Positions 22,061 through 26,663 of a DNA stretch of 58,183 bases are shown here, in pieces. The position numbers and the translations under genes are program-made. Source of the DNA: Candidatus Deferrimicrobium sp. (GTDB taxonomy: Bacteria; Desulfobacterota; Deferrimicrobia; Deferrimicrobiales; Deferrimicrobiaceae); assembly GCA_049664185.1 (NCBI GenBank), contig JBATEU010000236.1, positions 1 to 58,183 on the forward strand, written 5' to 3'. The notes beneath the pieces are model-generated. The model was given only the letters and a program-made list of their open reading frames with translations. It did no database searches and was not told the origin of the DNA. Within the stretch, counting starts at the first letter, position 1; each line of letters begins with the position of its first letter.

Positions 22061-22215
22061 CATATCAATTTCCGGGGGACCCATGACGGTGGACGCATAT
22101 CGGGATTACTCGACAACTTGGCTCCTTCCGGATCTTCCGTTCGGAATATGGACGGGGAGTACACAACCGTCATATACTGGTGCCGGGTGATCCCAGGCCG
22201 GCGCCGGAGGATGGC

Positions 22216-23787
22216 ATGTCCTTCCTGAAGTCCCGGTATGAATCGATCCGAAGCGGTGCCGAAATCGCGGATATCGGGTTCTTTCTCCTGCGGATCGTCG
22301 CCCTTGCCGGTGCCATCGCATGGCTCGTGGCCACCCGCGCGTCCCGGGAAACGGCGGCAACGTTCCTCCGGATCTCTCTTTTCTTCGTCGCGTACGGCCT
22401 GCTGATCTACGCCCTCCTGCTCTACCGGTTCGAGAGGAAGAAGGAGATTTACCGGCTGTCTCTCCTTTTTGACCTCGTGTTCGTCGGTCTCCTGATCGTC
22501 CACTCGGGGGGGGTCGCCAGCAGTTTCTTCATAGGGTTCTACCTCCTCACGGCCCTCCACGCGTTTTATTACGGCTATCGCAGCGGGCTCGCGACGGCCG
22601 CTTTATGCGCGGTCGCTTACCTGGTCGCCGGTCTCCGCGTCTCGGTCATCGAGCCGGTCGACTTTCTCCTGCGCACCACCTTCCTTTTTCTGATCGGTCT
22701 GCCCATCGGACTTCTGTCGGGGATCCTCCGGAAGGACAAGGAACAGATCGGGGCGCTCAACCGGGAGCTCGTCCAGTCCATCGAGACGATGCGCCTGCTC
22801 CAGGGAAAGCTCGTGGAGGCGGAGAAGCTCTCCGCCCTGGGGCGATTCACGGCCGAAGTGGCCCACGAAATCCGCAACCCGCTGACGGCCATCGGAGGAT
22901 TCGCCAAGCGCCTCGAGAAGCGCCTCCCGGGGGGCACGCGGGAACGGGACGATGCGGGAATCATCGTGGCCGAGGTGGCGCGCCTCGAGCGGATCCTGAA
23001 GGACACGCTGACCTTCTCGCACGAGACGAGGACCCGCCTCGCCTACGTGGACATGAACGACGCCGTCGCCCTGGCGGAGCGGGATTTCGCCGACGCGTGC
23101 AGGGAGAAGGGGATATCGCTCGAGATCCGGCCGGACCCGTCCCTGCCCTTCTGCGTCGCGGATCGGGAGCAGGTCCGACAGGCCCTTGCGAACCTCGTGA
23201 TGAACGCCATCGACGCGATGGAGGCGGGAGGGGGGCTGACGATTTCCACCCGGACGGCGTGCGACAACGGGGTCCGCTCCATCACGATCGACGTCGCCGA
23301 CACGGGGCCGGGAATCCCCGCGGATCTCGCCGACCGGATCTTCGAGCCCTTCTATTCCACGAAAAAGATCGGTCACGGCACGGGGCTCGGCCTCTCCATC
23401 TGCAAGAAAATCATGGAGGAGCACCGGGGATGGGTGCAGATGACCACTTCCCCCGGCAAGGGCTCGGTGTTCAGCCTTCAATTCCCGTTTCTCCCGCCGG
23501 AGGAGACCTTCAAGGTGCAGTGCTGGGAAGCGATGCGTTGCGGCATGGAGAAGATCGAGGGCGTGGAGGGTCGATGCCCTGCCTACCCGAACTTCGGCCG
23601 CATCTGCTGGTCGGTGGCCGGTACGTTCTCGGAGACGAAGGTCCAGGGCATCGCGGCCCAAAAGCTCGGAGACTGCCGGAAGTGCCCGTTCTACATAACG
23701 ATCCAGCCGACATGCGATCCGCCCCCATCGACCGCCGAGCCGTACGAGGCCCACCGCCGCCATCTCCTCCCGGGGAAGTCCGCGTGA
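22216..23787 (+). CDS. Membrane sensor histidine kinase with a C-terminal Cys-rich two-CW-like domain
   Basis: It has several N-terminal TM helices, a coiled coil, an H-box EVAHEIRNPLTAI, N-box NLVMNAIDAM, and G-boxes DTGPGIP and GTGLGLSI. The tail is CWEAMRCG…CPAYPNFGRICWSVAG…CRKCPFY. The start could be 22180. Confidence 0.85.
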   Translation: MSFLKSRYESIRSGAEIADIGFFLLRIVALAGAIAWLVATRASRETAATFLRISLFFVAYGLLIYALLLYRFERKKEIYRLSLLFDLVFVGLLIVHSGGVASSFFIGFYLLTALHAFYYGYRSGLATAALCAVAYLVAGLRVSVIEPVDFLLRTTFLFLIGLPIGLLSGILRKDKEQIGALNRELVQSIETMRLLQGKLVEAEKLSALGRFTAEVAHEIRNPLTAIGGFAKRLEKRLPGGTRERDDAGIIVAEVARLERILKDTLTFSHETRTRLAYVDMNDAVALAERDFADACREKGISLEIRPDPSLPFCVADREQVRQALANLVMNAIDAMEAGGGLTISTRTACDNGVRSITIDVADTGPGIPADLADRIFEPFYSTKKIGHGTGLGLSICKKIMEEHRGWVQMTTSPGKGSVFSLQFPFLPPEETFKVQCWEAMRCGMEKIEGVEGRCPAYPNFGRICWSVAGTFSETKVQGIAAQKLGDCRKCPFYITIQPTCDPPPSTAEPYEAHRRHLLPGKSA

Positions 23788-24038: not shown

Positions 24039-25313
24039 ATGGTGAAACAACGCAACGGAATGCTCTTCATGATCGCGGTTGCCCTATGTGTTCCCTTGTT
24101 TTTCGCCGGGTGCGGAAGCAGCGACGACAATGCGGCTTCGAATGGGACCCCGGGGGGGGCCGGATCGGTCATCGGCACGACCCCGACGCCAAGCGCCGAC
24201 CTCCAGGAGATCGCCGCGCGAGTGAATGCCGTCCTGGCCCTCGGCTACAACACGACGAACCCCGACGCGGTAATGAAACAGCTGAGCGGTCTGGACAACA
24301 CCAAGGCCGCGGGTGCCCTCTTCGTGGTCGATACCCGGGAGCCCGCGGATTTCGACAGGGGGCACATCCCCGGCGCCGTCAACATACCGCTCCAGTCGCT
24401 CCCGCAGGCCCTGCTCGACAATACCTCCGGGATCCCGATGGACAAAGAGGTCGTCGTGGCTTCCTACTGGGGCAACGACGGCAACATGGCCAGTCTTCTG
24501 ATCAACATCTATCGCGTCGCCGATCCGGCGAACCCCGGAAGCTACCCAAAATCCACGGCGATTTTCGGCGGGATGACCGCGTGGTCGTTCAACCGGCTGC
24601 TGGTTCCATCGAAAACGCGCTTCGACGACGCGCTCGGCGTGGTCACCGTGCAGAAAGCCACGGAAACCACCGCGCACCCCGGCGTGGTCAAGGGCGCGTT
24701 CCCGAACTTCGCGGCCTTCACGGATACCGGCGTGGTGAACAAGATCCTGGTGCGGGCCACGAACTACCTGAACTCCGTGCCCACCCAGTTCGACCTGCAG
24801 ATGTATCCGAAAGCCCTGTCGGACAACCTCGAAGACGGAAATACCGCGAATGACCCTCAAATCATCAGCGTCCGATCCGGGCCCCACTACGCGGGCGGGC
24901 ACATCCCGGGCGCCATCAACATTCCGTACCAGCAGGCCGCCAACCTTGAAAACCAGACGAAGTTCGTGGACCCCTCGAAACCGGTGGCCGTTTACTGCTA
25001 CACCGGGCACACCGGATCGTTGGCCGCCATGGCCCTCGGCATCCTGGGGTACAACGCGAAGGATATCCTTTGGGGGATAAACGGCTGGAGCACCACGGTG
25101 CTCGGATCCGGCCAGCTGATCGCCTACGATCTGAACAAGAGCTGGGACTTCCCCCTGCACAACTGGGGCAGCGGCATCGACAATCTGGCCGCCTACACCC
25201 CCCCGTCCACCGGTTGCCAGGGGTGCCACACGAGCCTGACGGCCATCACCACCGAACTGTGGAAATTCCCGGCGGCAGGTGCGGTAACCGCACCCTCGTC
25301 GGGCGAAGGGTGA
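24039..25313 (+). CDS. Lipoprotein with two rhodanese-like domains and a terminal CxxCH haem motif; probably the N-terminal part of a longer protein (see 25332-26663)
   Basis: It has a lipobox LFFAGC. The first rhodanese domain lacks the catalytic Cys (ASYWGNDGN) and the second has it (VYCYTGHTG). CQGCH lies about 30 residues before the TGA stop. A strong GAGAGGAGGA RBS precedes the start. Confidence 0.8.
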   Translation: MVKQRNGMLFMIAVALCVPLFFAGCGSSDDNAASNGTPGGAGSVIGTTPTPSADLQEIAARVNAVLALGYNTTNPDAVMKQLSGLDNTKAAGALFVVDTREPADFDRGHIPGAVNIPLQSLPQALLDNTSGIPMDKEVVVASYWGNDGNMASLLINIYRVADPANPGSYPKSTAIFGGMTAWSFNRLLVPSKTRFDDALGVVTVQKATETTAHPGVVKGAFPNFAAFTDTGVVNKILVRATNYLNSVPTQFDLQMYPKALSDNLEDGNTANDPQIISVRSGPHYAGGHIPGAINIPYQQAANLENQTKFVDPSKPVAVYCYTGHTGSLAAMALGILGYNAKDILWGINGWSTTVLGSGQLIAYDLNKSWDFPLHNWGSGIDNLAAYTPPSTGCQGCHTSLTAITTELWKFPAAGAVTAPSSGEG

Positions 25314-25323
25314 GGCGGAACCG

Positions 25324-25343
25324 TTGCGTCCGTGCCGACGCAA
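25324..25343 (+). promoter_or_regulatory. SECIS-like hairpin 10 nt downstream of the TGA at 25311-25313
   Basis: Perfect 7-bp stem TTGCGTC/GACGCAA with a 6-nt loop CGTGCC. The apical loop lies 18-23 nt after the UGA. Confidence 0.4.
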
Positions 25344-26663
25344 AGAAAGATCTGGGTGTACAACGGACTGATCGAGCAGTATCCCGATAACTACCTCGCG
25401 ACAATTCATGGGTCCCAGGCATGCACCACGTGCCATGGCGGCAACGACAATGTCTCCACCAGGGCCTTGGCGCACACCGGGACGTGGGCAGCCATCCCCG
25501 GGTCCGACAAGTGCGGTGCGTGCCATGCCGCCATCGTCGCCTCGAGCGACAATAGCCTGCACACCACCCTGGGAGGGTATGTGAAATCCCTGGGCGACCG
25601 GGGGTTCGATTTCAACGGCCCCACCCAGGCCGCGCGTTTTACCGAGCAATGCACGAAGTGCCACGTTGCGAACAGCAGCGGAAAGGGAGCCTGCGGCTTC
25701 TGCCATGTCTCCGTTCCGACAACGGCGGGGGGCGGATTCCTGAACGGACACAACTTCCGATTTACTCCCGATATGGACCGCAACTGCACCGCGTGCCACG
25801 GGAGCCGGGTGAAGGACGAGTTCTACGGACTGAACAACGCGCTGATCACGAGAAACGGCCTGGGACTGGCGCCTGTGCAGCCGGATGTCCATTTCGCCCG
25901 GGCACAGGTGGTCGACATCGCCACCGGCCTCCCGAAGGGGTGCGCTTTCTGTCACAGCGGAAACGAGATGCATGGAGCGGGTGCACCCTCTCCGGCGGGA
26001 AGCGGCGGCAGGTATGACATCGCCGGCACTCCGAAGTGCACCGACTGCCACGCAGGCACGACGGGTGCGAACCCGCTTCACTCCTCCGGGCATCTGGCCA
26101 CCATGGATTGCCAGATCTGCCACGCTCAGCCCTACAAGAACTGTTTCGGCTGTCATACCGACGTCGATGTGGGGAAAAGCAATCTTCCCTTCTATAGAAG
26201 CAATGAGGGAGATCCGACGCTCGCGGTCCGTCCGGAGGGATCGGCGCCGGACGCGCTCATGACCTTCCGGATCGGGAAAAATCCGCTATGGCTGGGGACG
26301 GGGGACACGGGGAACAAGAAGTACGCCGTGCTTCGCCATGCCCCCGTGGACAAGGACCTGTTCCGGTACCCTCTGGCCGGCCCTGTCGACGGGCTCCTTC
26401 CCAACATGACGGCCCGGTCGACGTGGCGGTATGCCACTCCGCACAACATCCAAAGGAACTCGCTCGGGGCGACTTCCTCCTTTGCGTCCTTCAACGTGGC
26501 GAACTGCGGGAATTGCCACGGGGCGACGTATGCCGAGCACTGGCTTACCGACCCGGCACTCGACGCCAAGGGATGGCTGCAGCCCGCCTACCAGGCGGAC
26601 GAACAGGCCGCAAACGGCAGCGTGGTCCAACCCACCCCTCCAATTCCGTTGGCCTCGCCTTAG
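25332..26663 (+). CDS. Decahaem c-type cytochrome segment with no signal peptide of its own; in frame with 24039-25313 across one TGA
   Basis: It has ten CxxCH motifs (CTTCH, CGACH, CTKCH, CGFCH, CTACH, CAFCH, CTDCH, CQICH, CFGCH, CGNCH). The predicted GTG start lies in the hairpin loop. The N-terminus MPTQRKIWVYNG is not a signal peptide. Confidence 0.75.
   Translation: MPTQRKIWVYNGLIEQYPDNYLATIHGSQACTTCHGGNDNVSTRALAHTGTWAAIPGSDKCGACHAAIVASSDNSLHTTLGGYVKSLGDRGFDFNGPTQAARFTEQCTKCHVANSSGKGACGFCHVSVPTTAGGGFLNGHNFRFTPDMDRNCTACHGSRVKDEFYGLNNALITRNGLGLAPVQPDVHFARAQVVDIATGLPKGCAFCHSGNEMHGAGAPSPAGSGGRYDIAGTPKCTDCHAGTTGANPLHSSGHLATMDCQICHAQPYKNCFGCHTDVDVGKSNLPFYRSNEGDPTLAVRPEGSAPDALMTFRIGKNPLWLGTGDTGNKKYAVLRHAPVDKDLFRYPLAGPVDGLLPNMTARSTWRYATPHNIQRNSLGATSSFASFNVANCGNCHGATYAEHWLTDPALDAKGWLQPAYQADEQAANGSVVQPTPPIPLASP

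What the first reader, a model, noticed from the sequence alone, without database searches (positions are those of the whole stretch)
25311..25343. Single in-frame TGA joins a rhodanese lipoprotein to a signal-less decahaem cytochrome: candidate selenocysteine/readthrough fusion (about 874 aa, 11 haems)
ORF 24039-25313 has a lipobox, two rhodanese domains and a lone CQGCH haem motif about 30 residues before its stop. ORF 25332-26663 has ten CxxCH motifs. Both are in the same frame and the only stop between them is TGA 25311-25313 (…APSSGEG-TGA-GGTVASVPTQRK…).

The downstream cytochrome has no signal peptide although c-type haem attachment needs export. Its predicted GTG start also sits in the loop of a perfect 7-bp hairpin (TTGCGTC-CGTGCC-GACGCAA). 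That hairpin begins 10 nt after the TGA, which is close to the spacing of the E. coli fdhF SECIS element.

Together with the second TGA/hairpin case in hdrL, this suggests one exported rhodanese-multihaem selenoprotein, or programmed readthrough. A rhodanese-undecahaem fusion with Sec in the linker would be new to me.
Basis: partly seen in the sequence, partly recalled or inferred. Interest (0 to 1): 0.8.

Follow-up and report, generated by a model that had tools for sequence, protein, structure and literature searches.

The report
Rhodanese-fused selenocysteine undecahaem cytochrome
The apparent stop codon between a sulfur-transfer (rhodanese) lipoprotein gene and a ten-haem cytochrome gene is almost certainly read as selenocysteine, giving one exported 874-residue, 11-haem selenoprotein from a very large family that every public annotation we saw splits into two genes.

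Summary
TGA 25311-25313 is the only stop between two same-frame ORFs, and a 7-bp hairpin starts 10 nt after it.

The selenocysteine reading is strongly supported.
- In an unbiased scan of species-representative genomes, 75 of 78 evaluable homologous loci from at least eight phyla have TGA at this column. None has TAA or TAG, although the true 3' ends of the same genes are 79% TAA/TAG.
- The residues around the codon are conserved: CxxCH-(~25 aa)-S-x-G-E-G-U-G-G-[STE]-V.
- Continuous homologs carry Cys there, and others carry Trp, Leu or Asp.
- The hairpin stem covaries (93-99% paired, 5 of 7 pairs compensatory). It is absent from diverged Cys forms.
- No cytochrome half has its own signal peptide. 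The upstream parts carry lipoprotein signals.
- A selB gene lies 4 kb from one homolog.

One refinement is needed. Sec is not in a linker. It lies inside a conserved 11-haem module, between haems 1 and 2.

Rhodanese is a near-constant partner of that module: fused as here, or encoded by the adjacent gene in 55 of 65 distant loci. FeS/NrfD-type quinol modules often lie nearby.

The family is unrelated to the Geobacter selenoenzyme MccSep, and no NCBIfam model covers it. The function, probably respiratory sulfur or selenium chemistry, is inferred only.

The parts
24039..26663 (+). Single coding sequence of the selenoprotein (874 codons including UGA = Sec at codon 425; stop TAG 26661-26663)
   Evidence: Translation has one internal stop only. 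Homologous loci keep both halves in one frame across a conserved TGA.
24039..24113 (+). Lipoprotein signal peptide with lipobox FFAG-C25
   Evidence: Read directly from the sequence. Upstream parts of homologs likewise carry a lipobox or signal peptide: 73 of 77 have a hydrophobic N-terminal stretch (examples).
24315..24600 (+). Rhodanese domain 1, with no cysteine in the active-site loop (ASYWGNDG), so probably non-catalytic. Limits are approximate.
   Evidence: Pfam PF00581 gives two stretches. NCBIfam rhodanese models match residues 93-152. The missing Cys is read from the sequence.
24810..25091 (+). Rhodanese domain 2, with the catalytic loop C320-Y-T-G-H-T (nt 24996-25013)
   Evidence: Pfam PF00581 matches residues 258-351. 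The CYTGHTG loop is conserved in P0001, P0006 and P0033. The six-residue loop is of the sulfurtransferase type (established knowledge of the rhodanese/Cdc25 superfamily).
25215..25229 (+). Haem-binding motif 1 (CQGCH), the first haem of the conserved 11-haem module
   Evidence: Invariant in 48 of 48 aligned family members, including those without a fused rhodanese.
25296..25322 (+). Conserved Sec motif S-S-G-E-G-U-G-G-T
   Evidence: G38, G40, U/C41, G42 and G43 are at least 95% conserved in 38 Sec/Cys forms. The flanks are conserved in 75 loci.
25311..25313 (+). UGA read as selenocysteine (residue 425)
   Evidence: All 75 loci with a stop at this column use TGA, whereas the true 3' ends of the same genes are TAA 37, TAG 24 and TGA 16. 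Continuous homologs have Cys at the column: L041, L053, P0271, P0261, P0264, P0330.
25324..25343 (+). SECIS-like hairpin: 7-bp stem (25324-25330 with 25337-25343) and loop CGUGCC (25331-25336)
   Evidence: In the window's clade, 98.9% of cells are paired, 5 of 7 pairs show compensatory changes, and 0 of 500 shuffles reach this. The distant clade has a stem in the same register: 93.3% paired, 5 of 7 pairs, 0 of 500. The hairpin is absent from the diverged Cys forms L091 and L092 and from the Asp form L021.
25314..26660 (+). Haems 2-11 of the cytochrome module (ten CxxCH motifs at 25422-26519) and ten conserved non-motif histidines
   Evidence: Motif coordinates are and conservation. Pfam Cytochrome_C7 matches at E 1e-10. 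The module has no signal peptide of its own.

Best explanation
Nucleotides 24039-26663 are one gene.

**Recoding (steps partly shown, partly inferred).** The ribosome reaches UGA 25311-25313. The hairpin that begins 10 nt downstream acts as a bacterial SECIS element and recruits SelB carrying Sec-tRNA(Sec). Selenocysteine is inserted as residue 425 and translation continues to TAG 26661.

**Product.** The product is exported through its single N-terminal lipoprotein signal and lipid-anchored. c-type haem is attached at 11 CxxCH sites. This yields a mature protein of about 850 residues:
- an inactive rhodanese domain;
- a catalytic rhodanese domain (Cys320);
- an undecahaem cytochrome with Sec in a glycine-rich G-E-G-U-G-G loop between haems 1 and 2.

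**What is shown by comparison.** The TGA, its flanks, the hairpin with its spacing and covariation, Cys at the same column in continuous homologs, the lack of any export signal on the downstream half, and the conserved partnership of this cytochrome with rhodanese.

**What is inferred (about 50% confidence).** The protein is the catalytic subunit of an extracytoplasmic respiratory oxidoreductase acting on a chalcogen substrate. Candidates are polysulfide or elemental sulfur, thiosulfate or tetrathionate, or selenium species. In this model:
- the rhodanese Cys binds or hands over sulfane sulfur (or selenium) as a persulfide;
- the Sec selenolate attacks it;
- the haem chain supplies or removes the electrons.

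In many homologs the electron route would run through neighbouring FeS/NrfD or cytochrome b quinol modules. In this window it may run through the adjacent DUF3373 porin and octahaem cytochrome, and perhaps the Qmo/Hdr-like genes.
For: **Conserved TGA.**
- An in-frame walk upstream from tblastn matches found TGA at the column in 13 of 13 close loci and 62 of 65 distant loci. These come from delta-proteobacterial, Desulfuromonadales, Actinomycetes, Planctomycetota, Chloroflexota, KSB1, Ignavibacteria, Eisenbacteria, Phycisphaerae and Bdellovibrionales MAGs.
- The three exceptions are continuous ORFs with Cys (L041, L053) or Asp (L021).
- As a control, the real stop codons of the same genes are TAA 37, TAG 24 and TGA 16.

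**Conserved flanks.** All rhodanese-half homologs of the clade end in ...S[EAS]GEG. The cytochrome halves begin at varied, artefactual starts just after GG[ST]V and have no signal peptide.

**Cys forms.** P0271 (..PGEG-C-GGTVPEMEAWEK..), P0261, P0264 and P0330 are continuous, each with an N-terminal signal peptide followed by haem 1.

**Hairpin.** Covariation statistics are. The hairpin is missing from the diverged Cys forms and decaying in L041.

**Sec machinery.** selB lies 4 kb from the homolog in L003-L005. A second in-frame TGA occurs in the window's hdrL-like gene.

**Gene structure.** No promoter-like or terminator-like site lies between the halves.

**Function.**
- A rhodanese gene is adjacent on the same strand in 55 of 65 distant loci. 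It is fused at the C-terminus in P0078 and lies next to the Cys form in L092.
- A TAT-type FeS subunit occurs in 31 loci, with NrfD or cytochrome b561 and further multihaem cytochromes nearby.
- The window's neighbours are TusA, two DsrE genes, QmoC-like and Hdr-like genes, a DUF3373 porin and an OTR-family octahaem cytochrome.
- There are ten conserved non-motif His for 11 haems, and the only extra conserved redox residue is Sec/Cys.
Against: - No tRNA-Sec, selA, selB or selD is present in the 58-kb window. Sec competence of this organism rests on the hdrL TGA and on relatives.
- Rfam found no family here.
- The hairpin's energy alone is unremarkable.
- Part of the stem sequence in the distant clade also encodes a conserved P-P-L-E-x-W peptide, so some conservation comes from the protein.
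- One Cys form (L053) still has a perfect hairpin. This could be a fossil SECIS, or the hairpin could have another role.
- Several continuous homologs carry Trp, Leu, Asp or other residues at the column. Sec is therefore not indispensable for the fold, and perhaps not for every function.
- The AlphaFold model is below pLDDT 50 for residues 23-72 around Sec. No geometry relative to a haem is available.
- No structural or sequence relative of known function exists, so the substrate is unknown.
Confidence: 0.9

Rival explanations
1. Two separate genes. TGA is a true stop, and the decahaem cytochrome is translated independently from GTG 25332 or by termination-reinitiation.
For: This is how every gene caller treated it. 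A GTG lies 18 nt after the stop.
Against: - The downstream product has no signal peptide, so c-type haem could not be attached. The same holds for more than 200 homologs, whose predicted starts are inconsistent.
- The 18-nt 'spacer' is in frame and conserved as protein (GG[STE]V..).
- The stop is TGA in 75 of 75 loci, whereas true stops are 79% TAA/TAG.
- Continuous Cys forms exist.
- The GTG is sequestered in the hairpin loop, and no Shine-Dalgarno sequence is evident.
Confidence: 0.03
2. Programmed or leaky readthrough of UGA by a standard tRNA (Trp, or Cys by near-cognate decoding) rather than Sec. This would give the same fusion without selenium.
For: Continuous homologs with Trp (TGG) at the column exist: P0269, P0414, P0415 and P0424. 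No Sec machinery lies in the window.
Against: - The conserved, covarying hairpin sits at SECIS-like spacing with G-U in its loop.
- It is lost in diverged Cys forms.
- Cys, the classical Sec counterpart, is present in several lineages.
- selB lies next to one homolog.
- The motif is glycine-flanked and invariant, as at catalytic Sec sites.
Confidence: 0.04
3. Sequencing error or decaying pseudogene. The real codon is TGC or TGG, or the locus is dead.
For: One homolog, L001/P0001, does show two compensating frameshifts around the TGA. That is either a sign of assembly error or a sign of decay there.
Against: - The same protein-coding sequence was found on four independent contigs.
- TGA is present in 75 independent loci.
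- All 11 haem motifs and all conserved His are intact in the window.
- The cytochrome half is 89% identical to P0086.
Confidence: 0.01
4. The hairpin is not a SECIS. It would be a regulatory or mRNA-stability structure that happens to follow the TGA.
For: The Cys form L053 keeps a perfect 7/7 hairpin. No Rfam family was hit.
Against: - The spacing from the TGA is fixed at 10 nt in two clades whose stems and loops differ in sequence.
- The hairpin is absent in the diverged Cys forms and the Asp form.
- L053 and L041 are close relatives, consistent with a recent Sec-to-Cys switch that left a fossil SECIS (5/7 pairs in L041).
Confidence: 0.03

Closest known systems
MccSep / ExtKL (GSU2937-2936) of Geobacter sulfurreducens, a pentahaem selenoprotein polysulfide reductase (PMC13510729)
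   Same: - It is a periplasmic multihaem c-type cytochrome whose gene was annotated as two ORFs split at an in-frame UGA followed by a SECIS-like hairpin.
- Sec sits on a flexible glycine-containing loop (D-G-U-P there, G-E-G-U-G-G here).
- It is linked to a rhodanese lipoprotein (ExtH, in the same gene cluster) and a porin.
- Sulfur and selenium chemistry has been demonstrated for it.
   Different: - There is no detectable sequence relationship. MccSep chains are in the PDB copy, but neither phmmer nor a family profile hits them.
- MccSep has 5 haems against 11 here.
- Its Sec is near the C-terminus in an Ig-like domain, not between haems 1 and 2.
- MccSep has a conserved haem-ligating Cys, whereas this family has no conserved Cys outside the CxxCH motifs.
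- Rhodanese is fused or adjacent here rather than three genes away.
ExtM / ExtN multihaem cytochromes of the Geobacter 'selenite/tellurite reduction operon' (NCBIfam NF040943, NF040967)
   Same: They are the best-scoring curated families. 14-17 of 21 cytochrome halves match them at E down to 1e-16. ExtN is also a decahaem protein of about 47 kDa, encoded in a cluster with a rhodanese lipoprotein and a porin (PMC5877670).
   Different: Scores (about 54 bits or less) are far below the curated cut-offs of 200 and 800 bits, and the window protein itself does not match at E <= 0.001. ExtM and ExtN are not reported as selenoproteins.
Bacterial SECIS element of E. coli fdhF, and the bSECISearch model
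   Same: It is a stem-loop immediately 3' of the UGA, inside the coding sequence. The spacer is about 10-11 nt, and G-U in the apical loop lies about 21-23 nt from the U of UGA. The fdhF numbers are recalled from the literature, not tested here.
   Different: The loop sequence differs (CGUGCC or GUU here) and no bulged U is evident. No Rfam model matched. SelB binding is untested.
His/Cys-ligated haem enzymes of sulfur metabolism (TsdA, SoxAX) and multihaem reductases with NrfC/NrfD-type partners (MccA-MccCD, NrfA)
   Same: These are extracytoplasmic multihaem enzymes acting on sulfur compounds with a chalcogen residue at the active haem. FeS and NrfD quinol-module genes lie next to many homologs. 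Weak profile matches to NrfA, NrfB and cytochrome c3 were seen.
   Different: Only motif-level similarity was found. Whether Sec ligates or approaches a haem is unknown.
Previously listed rhodanese-domain selenoproteins (forms 1-5 in PMC13188914)
   Same: A rhodanese domain and Sec occur in one polypeptide.
   Different: - The listed motifs for forms 1-4 (UxxS, UxxG, CxU, UxxG) were taken, from knowledge of the rhodanese catalytic loop, to lie in the rhodanese domain itself. Form 5 (TsoB, UxxxxU) is a rhodanese/DsbD fusion. No sequences of forms 1-4 were checked.
- Here the rhodanese keeps Cys, and Sec lies in the cytochrome module.
- TsoB (NF045694) matched only at E 0.003, against a cut-off of 805 bits.
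- Identity with form 1 (UxxS, a Geobacter protein) could not be checked by sequence. However, no Geobacter protein appeared among the 85 homologs.

Membership tests
Bacterial selenoprotein gene (comparative-genomics criteria) | In-frame TGA conserved among orthologs, with protein-level conservation on both sides | tested here: met
   TGA is at the column in 75 of 78 loci, and the flanks S-x-G-E-G | G-G-[STE]-V are conserved. As a control, true stops of the same genes are TAA 37, TAG 24 and TGA 16.
Bacterial selenoprotein gene (comparative-genomics criteria) | Homologs with Cys aligned to the TGA | tested here: met
   L041 (TGC), L053 (TGT), L091/P0271 (TGT), L092/P0330 (TGC), P0261 and P0264.
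Bacterial selenoprotein gene (comparative-genomics criteria) | Sec-decoding machinery (selA, selB, selC, selD) in the same genome | tested here: inconclusive
   None is present in the 58-kb window. selB lies 4 kb from the homolog in three Thermoleophilia MAG contigs. A second in-frame TGA occurs in the window's hdrL-like gene. The rest of the genome was not available.
Bacterial SECIS element | Stem-loop in the mRNA starting about 10-11 nt 3' of the UGA, maintained by compensatory changes | tested here: met
   The stem starts 10 nt after the UGA in both clades. Cells paired are 98.9% and 93.3%, 5 of 7 pairs have changes on both sides in each clade, 0 of 500 shuffles reach this, and slid controls give 31-57%.
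Bacterial SECIS element | Apical loop with conserved G(U) that binds SelB | not testable with these tools
   The loops CGUGCC and GUU contain an invariant G-U. SelB binding needs experiment.
Bacterial SECIS element | Presence tied to the UGA (lost when Sec is replaced) | tested here: met
   No hairpin in the canonical register (fewer than 6 of 7 pairs, within +/-2 nt, loops of 3-6 nt) occurs in the Cys forms L091 and L092. In the Asp form L021, tested in the exact register with loops of 3 and 6 nt, only 2-3 of 7 pairs form. L041 retains 5/7. The recent Cys form L053 keeps 7/7.
MccSep (ExtKL) multihaem selenoprotein family | Sequence homology to MccSep, five conserved haem motifs, a haem-ligating Cys, and Sec in a C-terminal D-G-U-P loop | tested here: not met
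   MccSep chains 9wt8 and 9wt9 are in the searched PDB copy but are not hit by the protein or the family profile at E <= 10. This family has 11 haems, and no conserved extra Cys.
ExtM / ExtN (NCBIfam NF040943 / NF040967) | Score above the curated cut-off (800 / 200 bits) | tested here: not met
   The best member scores about 54 bits, and the window protein has no hit at E <= 0.001.
Rhodanese-type sulfurtransferase domain | Rhodanese fold with a catalytic Cys in a six-residue active-site loop | tested here: met
   PF00581 scores 97.9 bits against a cut-off of 22.2, in two stretches. Domain 2 has C320-YTGHT, conserved in homologs. Domain 1 lacks the Cys. Enzymatic activity was not tested.
Exported multihaem c-type cytochrome | Multiple CxxCH motifs with matching distal ligands and an export signal | tested here: met
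   There are 11 CxxCH motifs and ten conserved non-motif His. The only signal peptide or lipobox is at the N-terminus of the upstream ORF.

The most novel reading that the evidence does not exclude
This is the founding example of an undescribed and very widespread class of respiratory selenoenzyme. The scan found relatives of the cytochrome module in at least 590 stretches of species-representative genomes (Sec status was checked in 78 loci) and more than 1,300 protein clusters, dominated by Chloroflexota. The class would be an undecahaem cytochrome whose selenocysteine, on a G-E-G-U-G-G loop, is the missing eleventh axial ligand or the catalytic nucleophile at a haem. It would work obligatorily with a rhodanese persulfide carrier to reduce or oxidise sulfur or selenium species outside the cytoplasm. 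If Sec ligates the iron, it would be the first natural His/Sec-ligated haem.
Probability: 0.35. Interest if true: 0.85.

Novelty: new variant of a known kind. Interest (0 to 1): 0.72.

Why it matters
**Annotation.** Every public annotation seen here splits this protein into a 'rhodanese' and a signal-less 'cytochrome' or 'hypothetical protein'. JGI even names many of the cytochrome halves 'thiosulfate/3-mercaptopyruvate sulfurtransferase'. Metabolic reconstructions therefore miss or misread the protein in hundreds of uncultured Chloroflexota, Desulfobacterota-like, Actinomycetota and Planctomycetota genomes.

**Biology.** Only one multihaem selenoenzyme (MccSep, 2026) has been characterised. 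A second, unrelated and much more widespread family, with a conserved rhodanese partner and quinol-module neighbours, suggests that Sec-plus-haem chemistry is a general solution for extracytoplasmic chalcogen respiration. It also offers a concrete, testable candidate for sulfur or selenium cycling by abundant anaerobic Chloroflexota.

**RNA-protein constraint.** The SECIS stem visibly forces amino-acid covariation (Ala..Pro against Pro..Ala). This is a clean example of RNA structure constraining protein sequence.

Tried and rejected
- **Rfam scan** of the whole window: no family at gathering score.
- **ARAGORN**: no tRNA-Sec in the window.
- **Single-sequence folding** of the hairpin: not better than shuffles. 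It was rejected as evidence on its own.
- **P0001** (946 aa, 95% coverage) at first looked like a continuous non-Sec fusion. Reading its DNA showed the TGA and hairpin in another frame, flanked by two compensating frameshifts, so it is not evidence for a non-Sec form.
- **AlphaFold2** on the haem-1-to-end core gave mean pLDDT 79, but below 50 around Sec, so no Sec-haem geometry could be drawn.
- **Foldseek against PDB**: no match at E <= 0.001.
- **PDB sequence and profile searches**: only generic multihaem hits.
- **NCBIfam**: no dedicated model for either half, for the Cys forms or for the DUF3373 neighbour.
- **Literature searches** for a selenocysteine-containing rhodanese or multihaem protein found only MccSep/ExtKL and general selenoprotein lists.
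  - The 2004 paper that defined 'rhodanese-like selenoprotein form 1' was not available.
- **ExtH orthology** of the rhodanese part was considered and dropped, because no ExtH model was hit.
- **An arsenate-reductase-type (Cdc25-like) rhodanese** was considered because of the ars genes next to L001. It was dropped because the loop has six residues and lacks the CX5R arginine.
Full report
**1. The observation**

- ORF 24039-25313 begins at an ATG five bases after AGGAGG.
- It encodes a signal peptide ending in the lipobox FFAG-C25 and two rhodanese stretches (Pfam PF00581, 97.9 bits).
  - The first lacks an active-site cysteine.
  - The second has C320-YTGHT.
- It has one haem motif, CQGCH, at residues 393-397.
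- The only stop in frame before TAG 26661-26663 is TGA 25311-25313.
- The part after the TGA has ten CxxCH motifs and no signal peptide.
- TTGCGTC-CGTGCC-GACGCAA (25324-25343) begins 10 nt after the TGA. The gene-caller's GTG start lies in its loop.

Taken alone, the hairpin is not thermodynamically unusual in this 66% G+C DNA (z = -0.22). No promoter-like or terminator-like site separates the halves.

**2. The TGA is conserved where a stop codon should not be**

Proteins similar to the rhodanese half form a clade whose members all end in ...S[EAS]GEG. They carry SLH domains in Thermoleophilia, PKD or carbohydrate-binding domains elsewhere, or a lipobox.

More than 100 listed proteins similar to the cytochrome half start at inconsistent positions just after the junction (VPAQKK.., MAPVPAPKK.., MVWVYDG..). 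None has a signal peptide.

On the contigs that encode them, the two halves are always adjacent and in the same frame, separated by TGA.

To avoid selecting for TGA, I scanned one genome per species with peptide patterns taken from deep inside the cytochrome (at least 590 related stretches). I then walked upstream in frame from each tblastn match to the first stop.

- 13 of 13 close loci have TGA at the same column, and so do 62 of 65 distant loci (33-38% identity; mostly Chloroflexota, but also KSB1, Ignavibacteria, Eisenbacteria, Phycisphaerae, Bdellovibrionales and Acidimicrobiia).
- The context is CxxCH-(~25 aa)-S-x-G-[EPVAS]-G-TGA-G-G-[STED]-[VL].
- The G+C content of the loci ranges from 42 to 74%.
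- The genuine stop codons of these same genes are TAA 37, TAG 24 and TGA 16.

**3. Cys and other residues at the column**

The three exceptions in the scan are continuous ORFs.

- L041 and L053 read ..AGEG-C-GGTVSPLEPWE.. after a lipoprotein signal and haem 1.
- L021 has Asp at the column.

An exhaustive HMMER search of 1.8 billion cluster representatives with the fused sequence found a dozen proteins whose single matched stretch spans the junction.

- Four have Cys (P0271, P0261, P0264, P0330).
- The others have Trp, Tyr, Met or other residues.
- All carry an N-terminal signal peptide followed by haem 1.
- P0269 is a continuous rhodanese-cytochrome ORF with Trp at the column.

A third search, with a Chloroflexota member, gave more than 1,370 clusters. 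Nearly all are truncated at the junction (74-75% coverage). A few full-length forms have Trp or Leu.

Sec is therefore the dominant state, and Cys is the classical alternative. The Trp forms (TGA to TGG, one step) show that the scaffold tolerates loss of the chalcogen.

**4. The hairpin is a conserved RNA structure tied to the TGA**

- In the window's clade (13 sequences), the 7-bp stem is paired in 98.9% of cells. Five of seven pairs show changes on both sides. No shuffle of 500 reaches the observed values, and sliding the partner by 1-3 columns drops pairing to 31-57%.
- The loop CGUGCC is almost invariant.
- In the distant clade (60 sequences), a different stem-loop (consensus UGCCUCC-GUU-GGAGGCA) occupies the same register, again starting 10 nt after UGA. 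It shows 93.3% pairing, five covarying pairs and 0 of 500 shuffles.
- One pair alternates C-G (34 sequences) and G-C (23 sequences). At the protein level this appears as Pro..Ala against Ala..Pro.

The hairpin's presence tracks the TGA.

| Locus | Residue at the column | Pairs in the canonical register |
|---|---|---|
| L091 (diverged Cys form) | Cys (TGT) | fewer than 6 of 7 |
| L092 (diverged Cys form) | Cys (TGC) | fewer than 6 of 7 |
| L021 | Asp | 2-3 of 7 |
| L041 | Cys (TGC) | 5 of 7 |
| L053 (close relative of L041) | Cys (TGT) | 7 of 7 |

The pattern is what a recent Sec-to-Cys switch with a fossil SECIS would give.

The spacing, and a G-U in the loop about 21-23 nt from the U of UGA, resemble the E. 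coli fdhF SECIS. That comparison is recalled from the literature and was not tested here.

A selB gene lies 4 kb from the homolog in three Thermoleophilia contigs. The window itself holds no Sec machinery or tRNA-Sec. It does hold a second in-frame TGA in an hdrL-like gene.

**5. What the protein is**

Aligning 38 Sec/Cys forms with 10 forms that lack the chalcogen shows the following.

- All 11 haem motifs are conserved in both groups.
- Ten non-motif histidines are conserved in both groups.
- Only the G-x-G-[U/C]-G-G motif distinguishes the groups.

Haem 1 and the Sec motif are present in homologs that have only a short signal-bearing N-terminus of 70-190 residues. The TGA therefore lies inside an 11-haem module, not at a domain junction. 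The rhodanese domains are a clade-specific N-terminal addition.

Eleven haems with ten conserved histidines leave one axial position unaccounted for. This is compatible with Sec ligation or with an open catalytic haem, but it does not prove either.

The AlphaFold2 model (mean pLDDT 79) is unreliable exactly around Sec. Foldseek found no PDB relative.

**6. Rhodanese is a constant partner, and the context is respiratory**

- A rhodanese-domain gene lies directly next to the cytochrome, on the same strand, in 55 of 65 distant loci (confirmed by Pfam for L023 and L062).
- It follows the cytochrome in L090 and in the Cys-form locus L092.
- In P0078 two rhodanese domains are fused to the C-terminus instead.

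The window protein is thus a Rosetta-stone fusion of a conserved gene pair.

Clustering the ORFs of all loci shows a TAT-signal 4Fe-4S subunit in 31 loci. It is accompanied by NrfD or a cytochrome b561-type membrane subunit, further multihaem cytochromes, LysR or sigma-54 regulators, and cytochrome c maturation genes.

The window's neighbours, in order, are:
- an ArsR-type regulator;
- TusA;
- FlpD/MvhD;
- the hdrL-like gene;
- a QmoC-like protein;
- DsrE;
- a histidine kinase;
- the selenoprotein itself;
- a second DsrE;
- a sigma-54 activator;
- a DUF3373 porin;
- an OTR-family octahaem cytochrome.

All of this points to extracytoplasmic redox chemistry on sulfur, or selenium, linked to the quinone pool or to other cytochromes. 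The substrate and the direction of the reaction are not established.

**7. Comparison with what is known**

The nearest concept is MccSep/ExtKL of Geobacter sulfurreducens. It is a pentahaem selenoprotein polysulfide reductase whose gene was likewise split at a UGA. It lies in a cluster with the rhodanese lipoprotein ExtH and the porin ExtI (PMC13510729, PMC5877670).

The present family is not MccSep.
- MccSep chains are in the PDB sequence copy, but neither the protein nor a family profile hits them.
- The haem number, the Sec position and the absence of a haem-ligating Cys all differ.

The best curated matches are sub-threshold hits to ExtM and ExtN (best E 1e-16, about 54 bits against cut-offs of 200-800). 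That suggests distant kinship with Ext cytochromes, not membership.

NCBIfam release 20 has no model for the family. A 2026 review table of prokaryotic selenoprotein families lists ExtKL, a GSU2204-family protein, an OTR-family octahaem cytochrome and five rhodanese forms. None of the listed motifs (UxxS, UxxG, CxU, UxxxxU) or model accessions points to this cytochrome family.

Full-text searches found no description of the family. I could not retrieve the sequence of 'rhodanese form 1', so a small chance of prior listing remains.

**8. Verdict**

The finding is better described as follows: a UGA-encoded selenocysteine between haems 1 and 2 of a conserved undecahaem cytochrome. Here the cytochrome is fused to its usual rhodanese partner and anchored as a lipoprotein.

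I rate it a new variant of a known kind. Bacterial SECIS-dependent selenoproteins are known, and so now are multihaem selenoenzymes. This one belongs to a large family that appears to be undescribed and is mis-annotated in every annotation examined here. Its biochemical function is an inference at about 0.5 confidence and needs experiment.

Noticed in passing
window 15605-18412 (TGA at 16175-16177): The hdrL-like gene (FAD/NAD-binding plus a GltD-type 4Fe-4S domain) is interrupted by a single in-frame TGA in the context ..SSPCTFT-TGA-PAGVKAHGY... That is where a cluster-binding Cys-Pro would be expected. It sits between FlpD/MvhD and a QmoC-like gene. It is a candidate second selenoprotein and indirect evidence that the organism decodes Sec.
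   Followed up: partly
L001 7480-7700 (JGI Ga0436546_0000063; protein P0001): The only 'continuous' 946-aa rhodanese-cytochrome call reads through the junction in another frame. The TGA, the GEG/GGS flanks, the hairpin and haem motif 2 are intact in a second frame, flanked by two compensating frameshifts. This is either assembly indels or a decayed copy. Its neighbours are arsenic-resistance genes (ArsR, ACR3/SBF, LMW phosphatase, ArsP, thioredoxin, DsbD).
   Followed up: partly
window 28107-30756: Downstream of the selenoprotein lie a DUF3373 outer-membrane beta-barrel and an octahaem cytochrome with a signal peptide. The cytochrome matches the tetrathionate-reductase (OTR) family at 2e-43, which is below the cut-off. 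With the rhodanese lipoprotein this resembles the rhodanese-porin-cytochrome layout of the Geobacter ext cluster, although no ExtI or ExtH model matched.
   Followed up: partly
alignment A5, columns 22 and 34 (loci L020-L084, 15-17 and 27-29 nt after the TGA): A SECIS stem pair alternates C-G (34 sequences) and G-C (23 sequences). This forces coupled amino-acid changes: Val-Pro-Pro-Leu-Glu-Ala against Val-Ala-Pro-Leu-Glu-Pro. It is a clear case of RNA structure constraining protein sequence.
   Followed up: partly
proteins P0269, P0414, P0415, P0424 (Trp), P0374 (Leu), L021 4950 (Asp): Several continuous family members have Trp (one step from TGA), Leu or Asp at the Sec column instead of Cys. 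The Sec residue can therefore be lost without replacement by a thiol. These lineages may have a changed or purely electron-transfer function.
   Followed up: partly
protein P0078 (Thermodesulfobacteriota MAG, 639 aa): The domain order is reversed: the cytochrome module comes first and two rhodanese domains sit at the C-terminus. The call starts without a signal peptide (MEPQEKVLVAKDFL..), so it is probably also truncated at an upstream TGA.
   Followed up: no
JGI product names: Dozens of the signal-less cytochrome halves, which contain no rhodanese domain, are named 'thiosulfate/3-mercaptopyruvate sulfurtransferase' by JGI. This is presumably annotation transfer from a fused or adjacent rhodanese, and it is a systematic mis-annotation.
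   Followed up: no
window 27312-28055 (-), 22180-23787 (+); L001, L088, L090: Sigma-54 activators (often with PAS domains) and histidine kinases recur next to the selenoprotein gene in unrelated loci. This suggests sigma-54-dependent regulation. The window's activator ORF is short (247 aa, no receiver domain).
   Followed up: no
L015 4908-4960: One close homolog has a different hairpin after the TGA (GAGGCC-GGUC-GGCCUC) and a divergent peptide (GGSVEAGRPLDK). Its loop sequence resembles the fdhF-type GGUC loop, a comparison made from memory.
   Followed up: no
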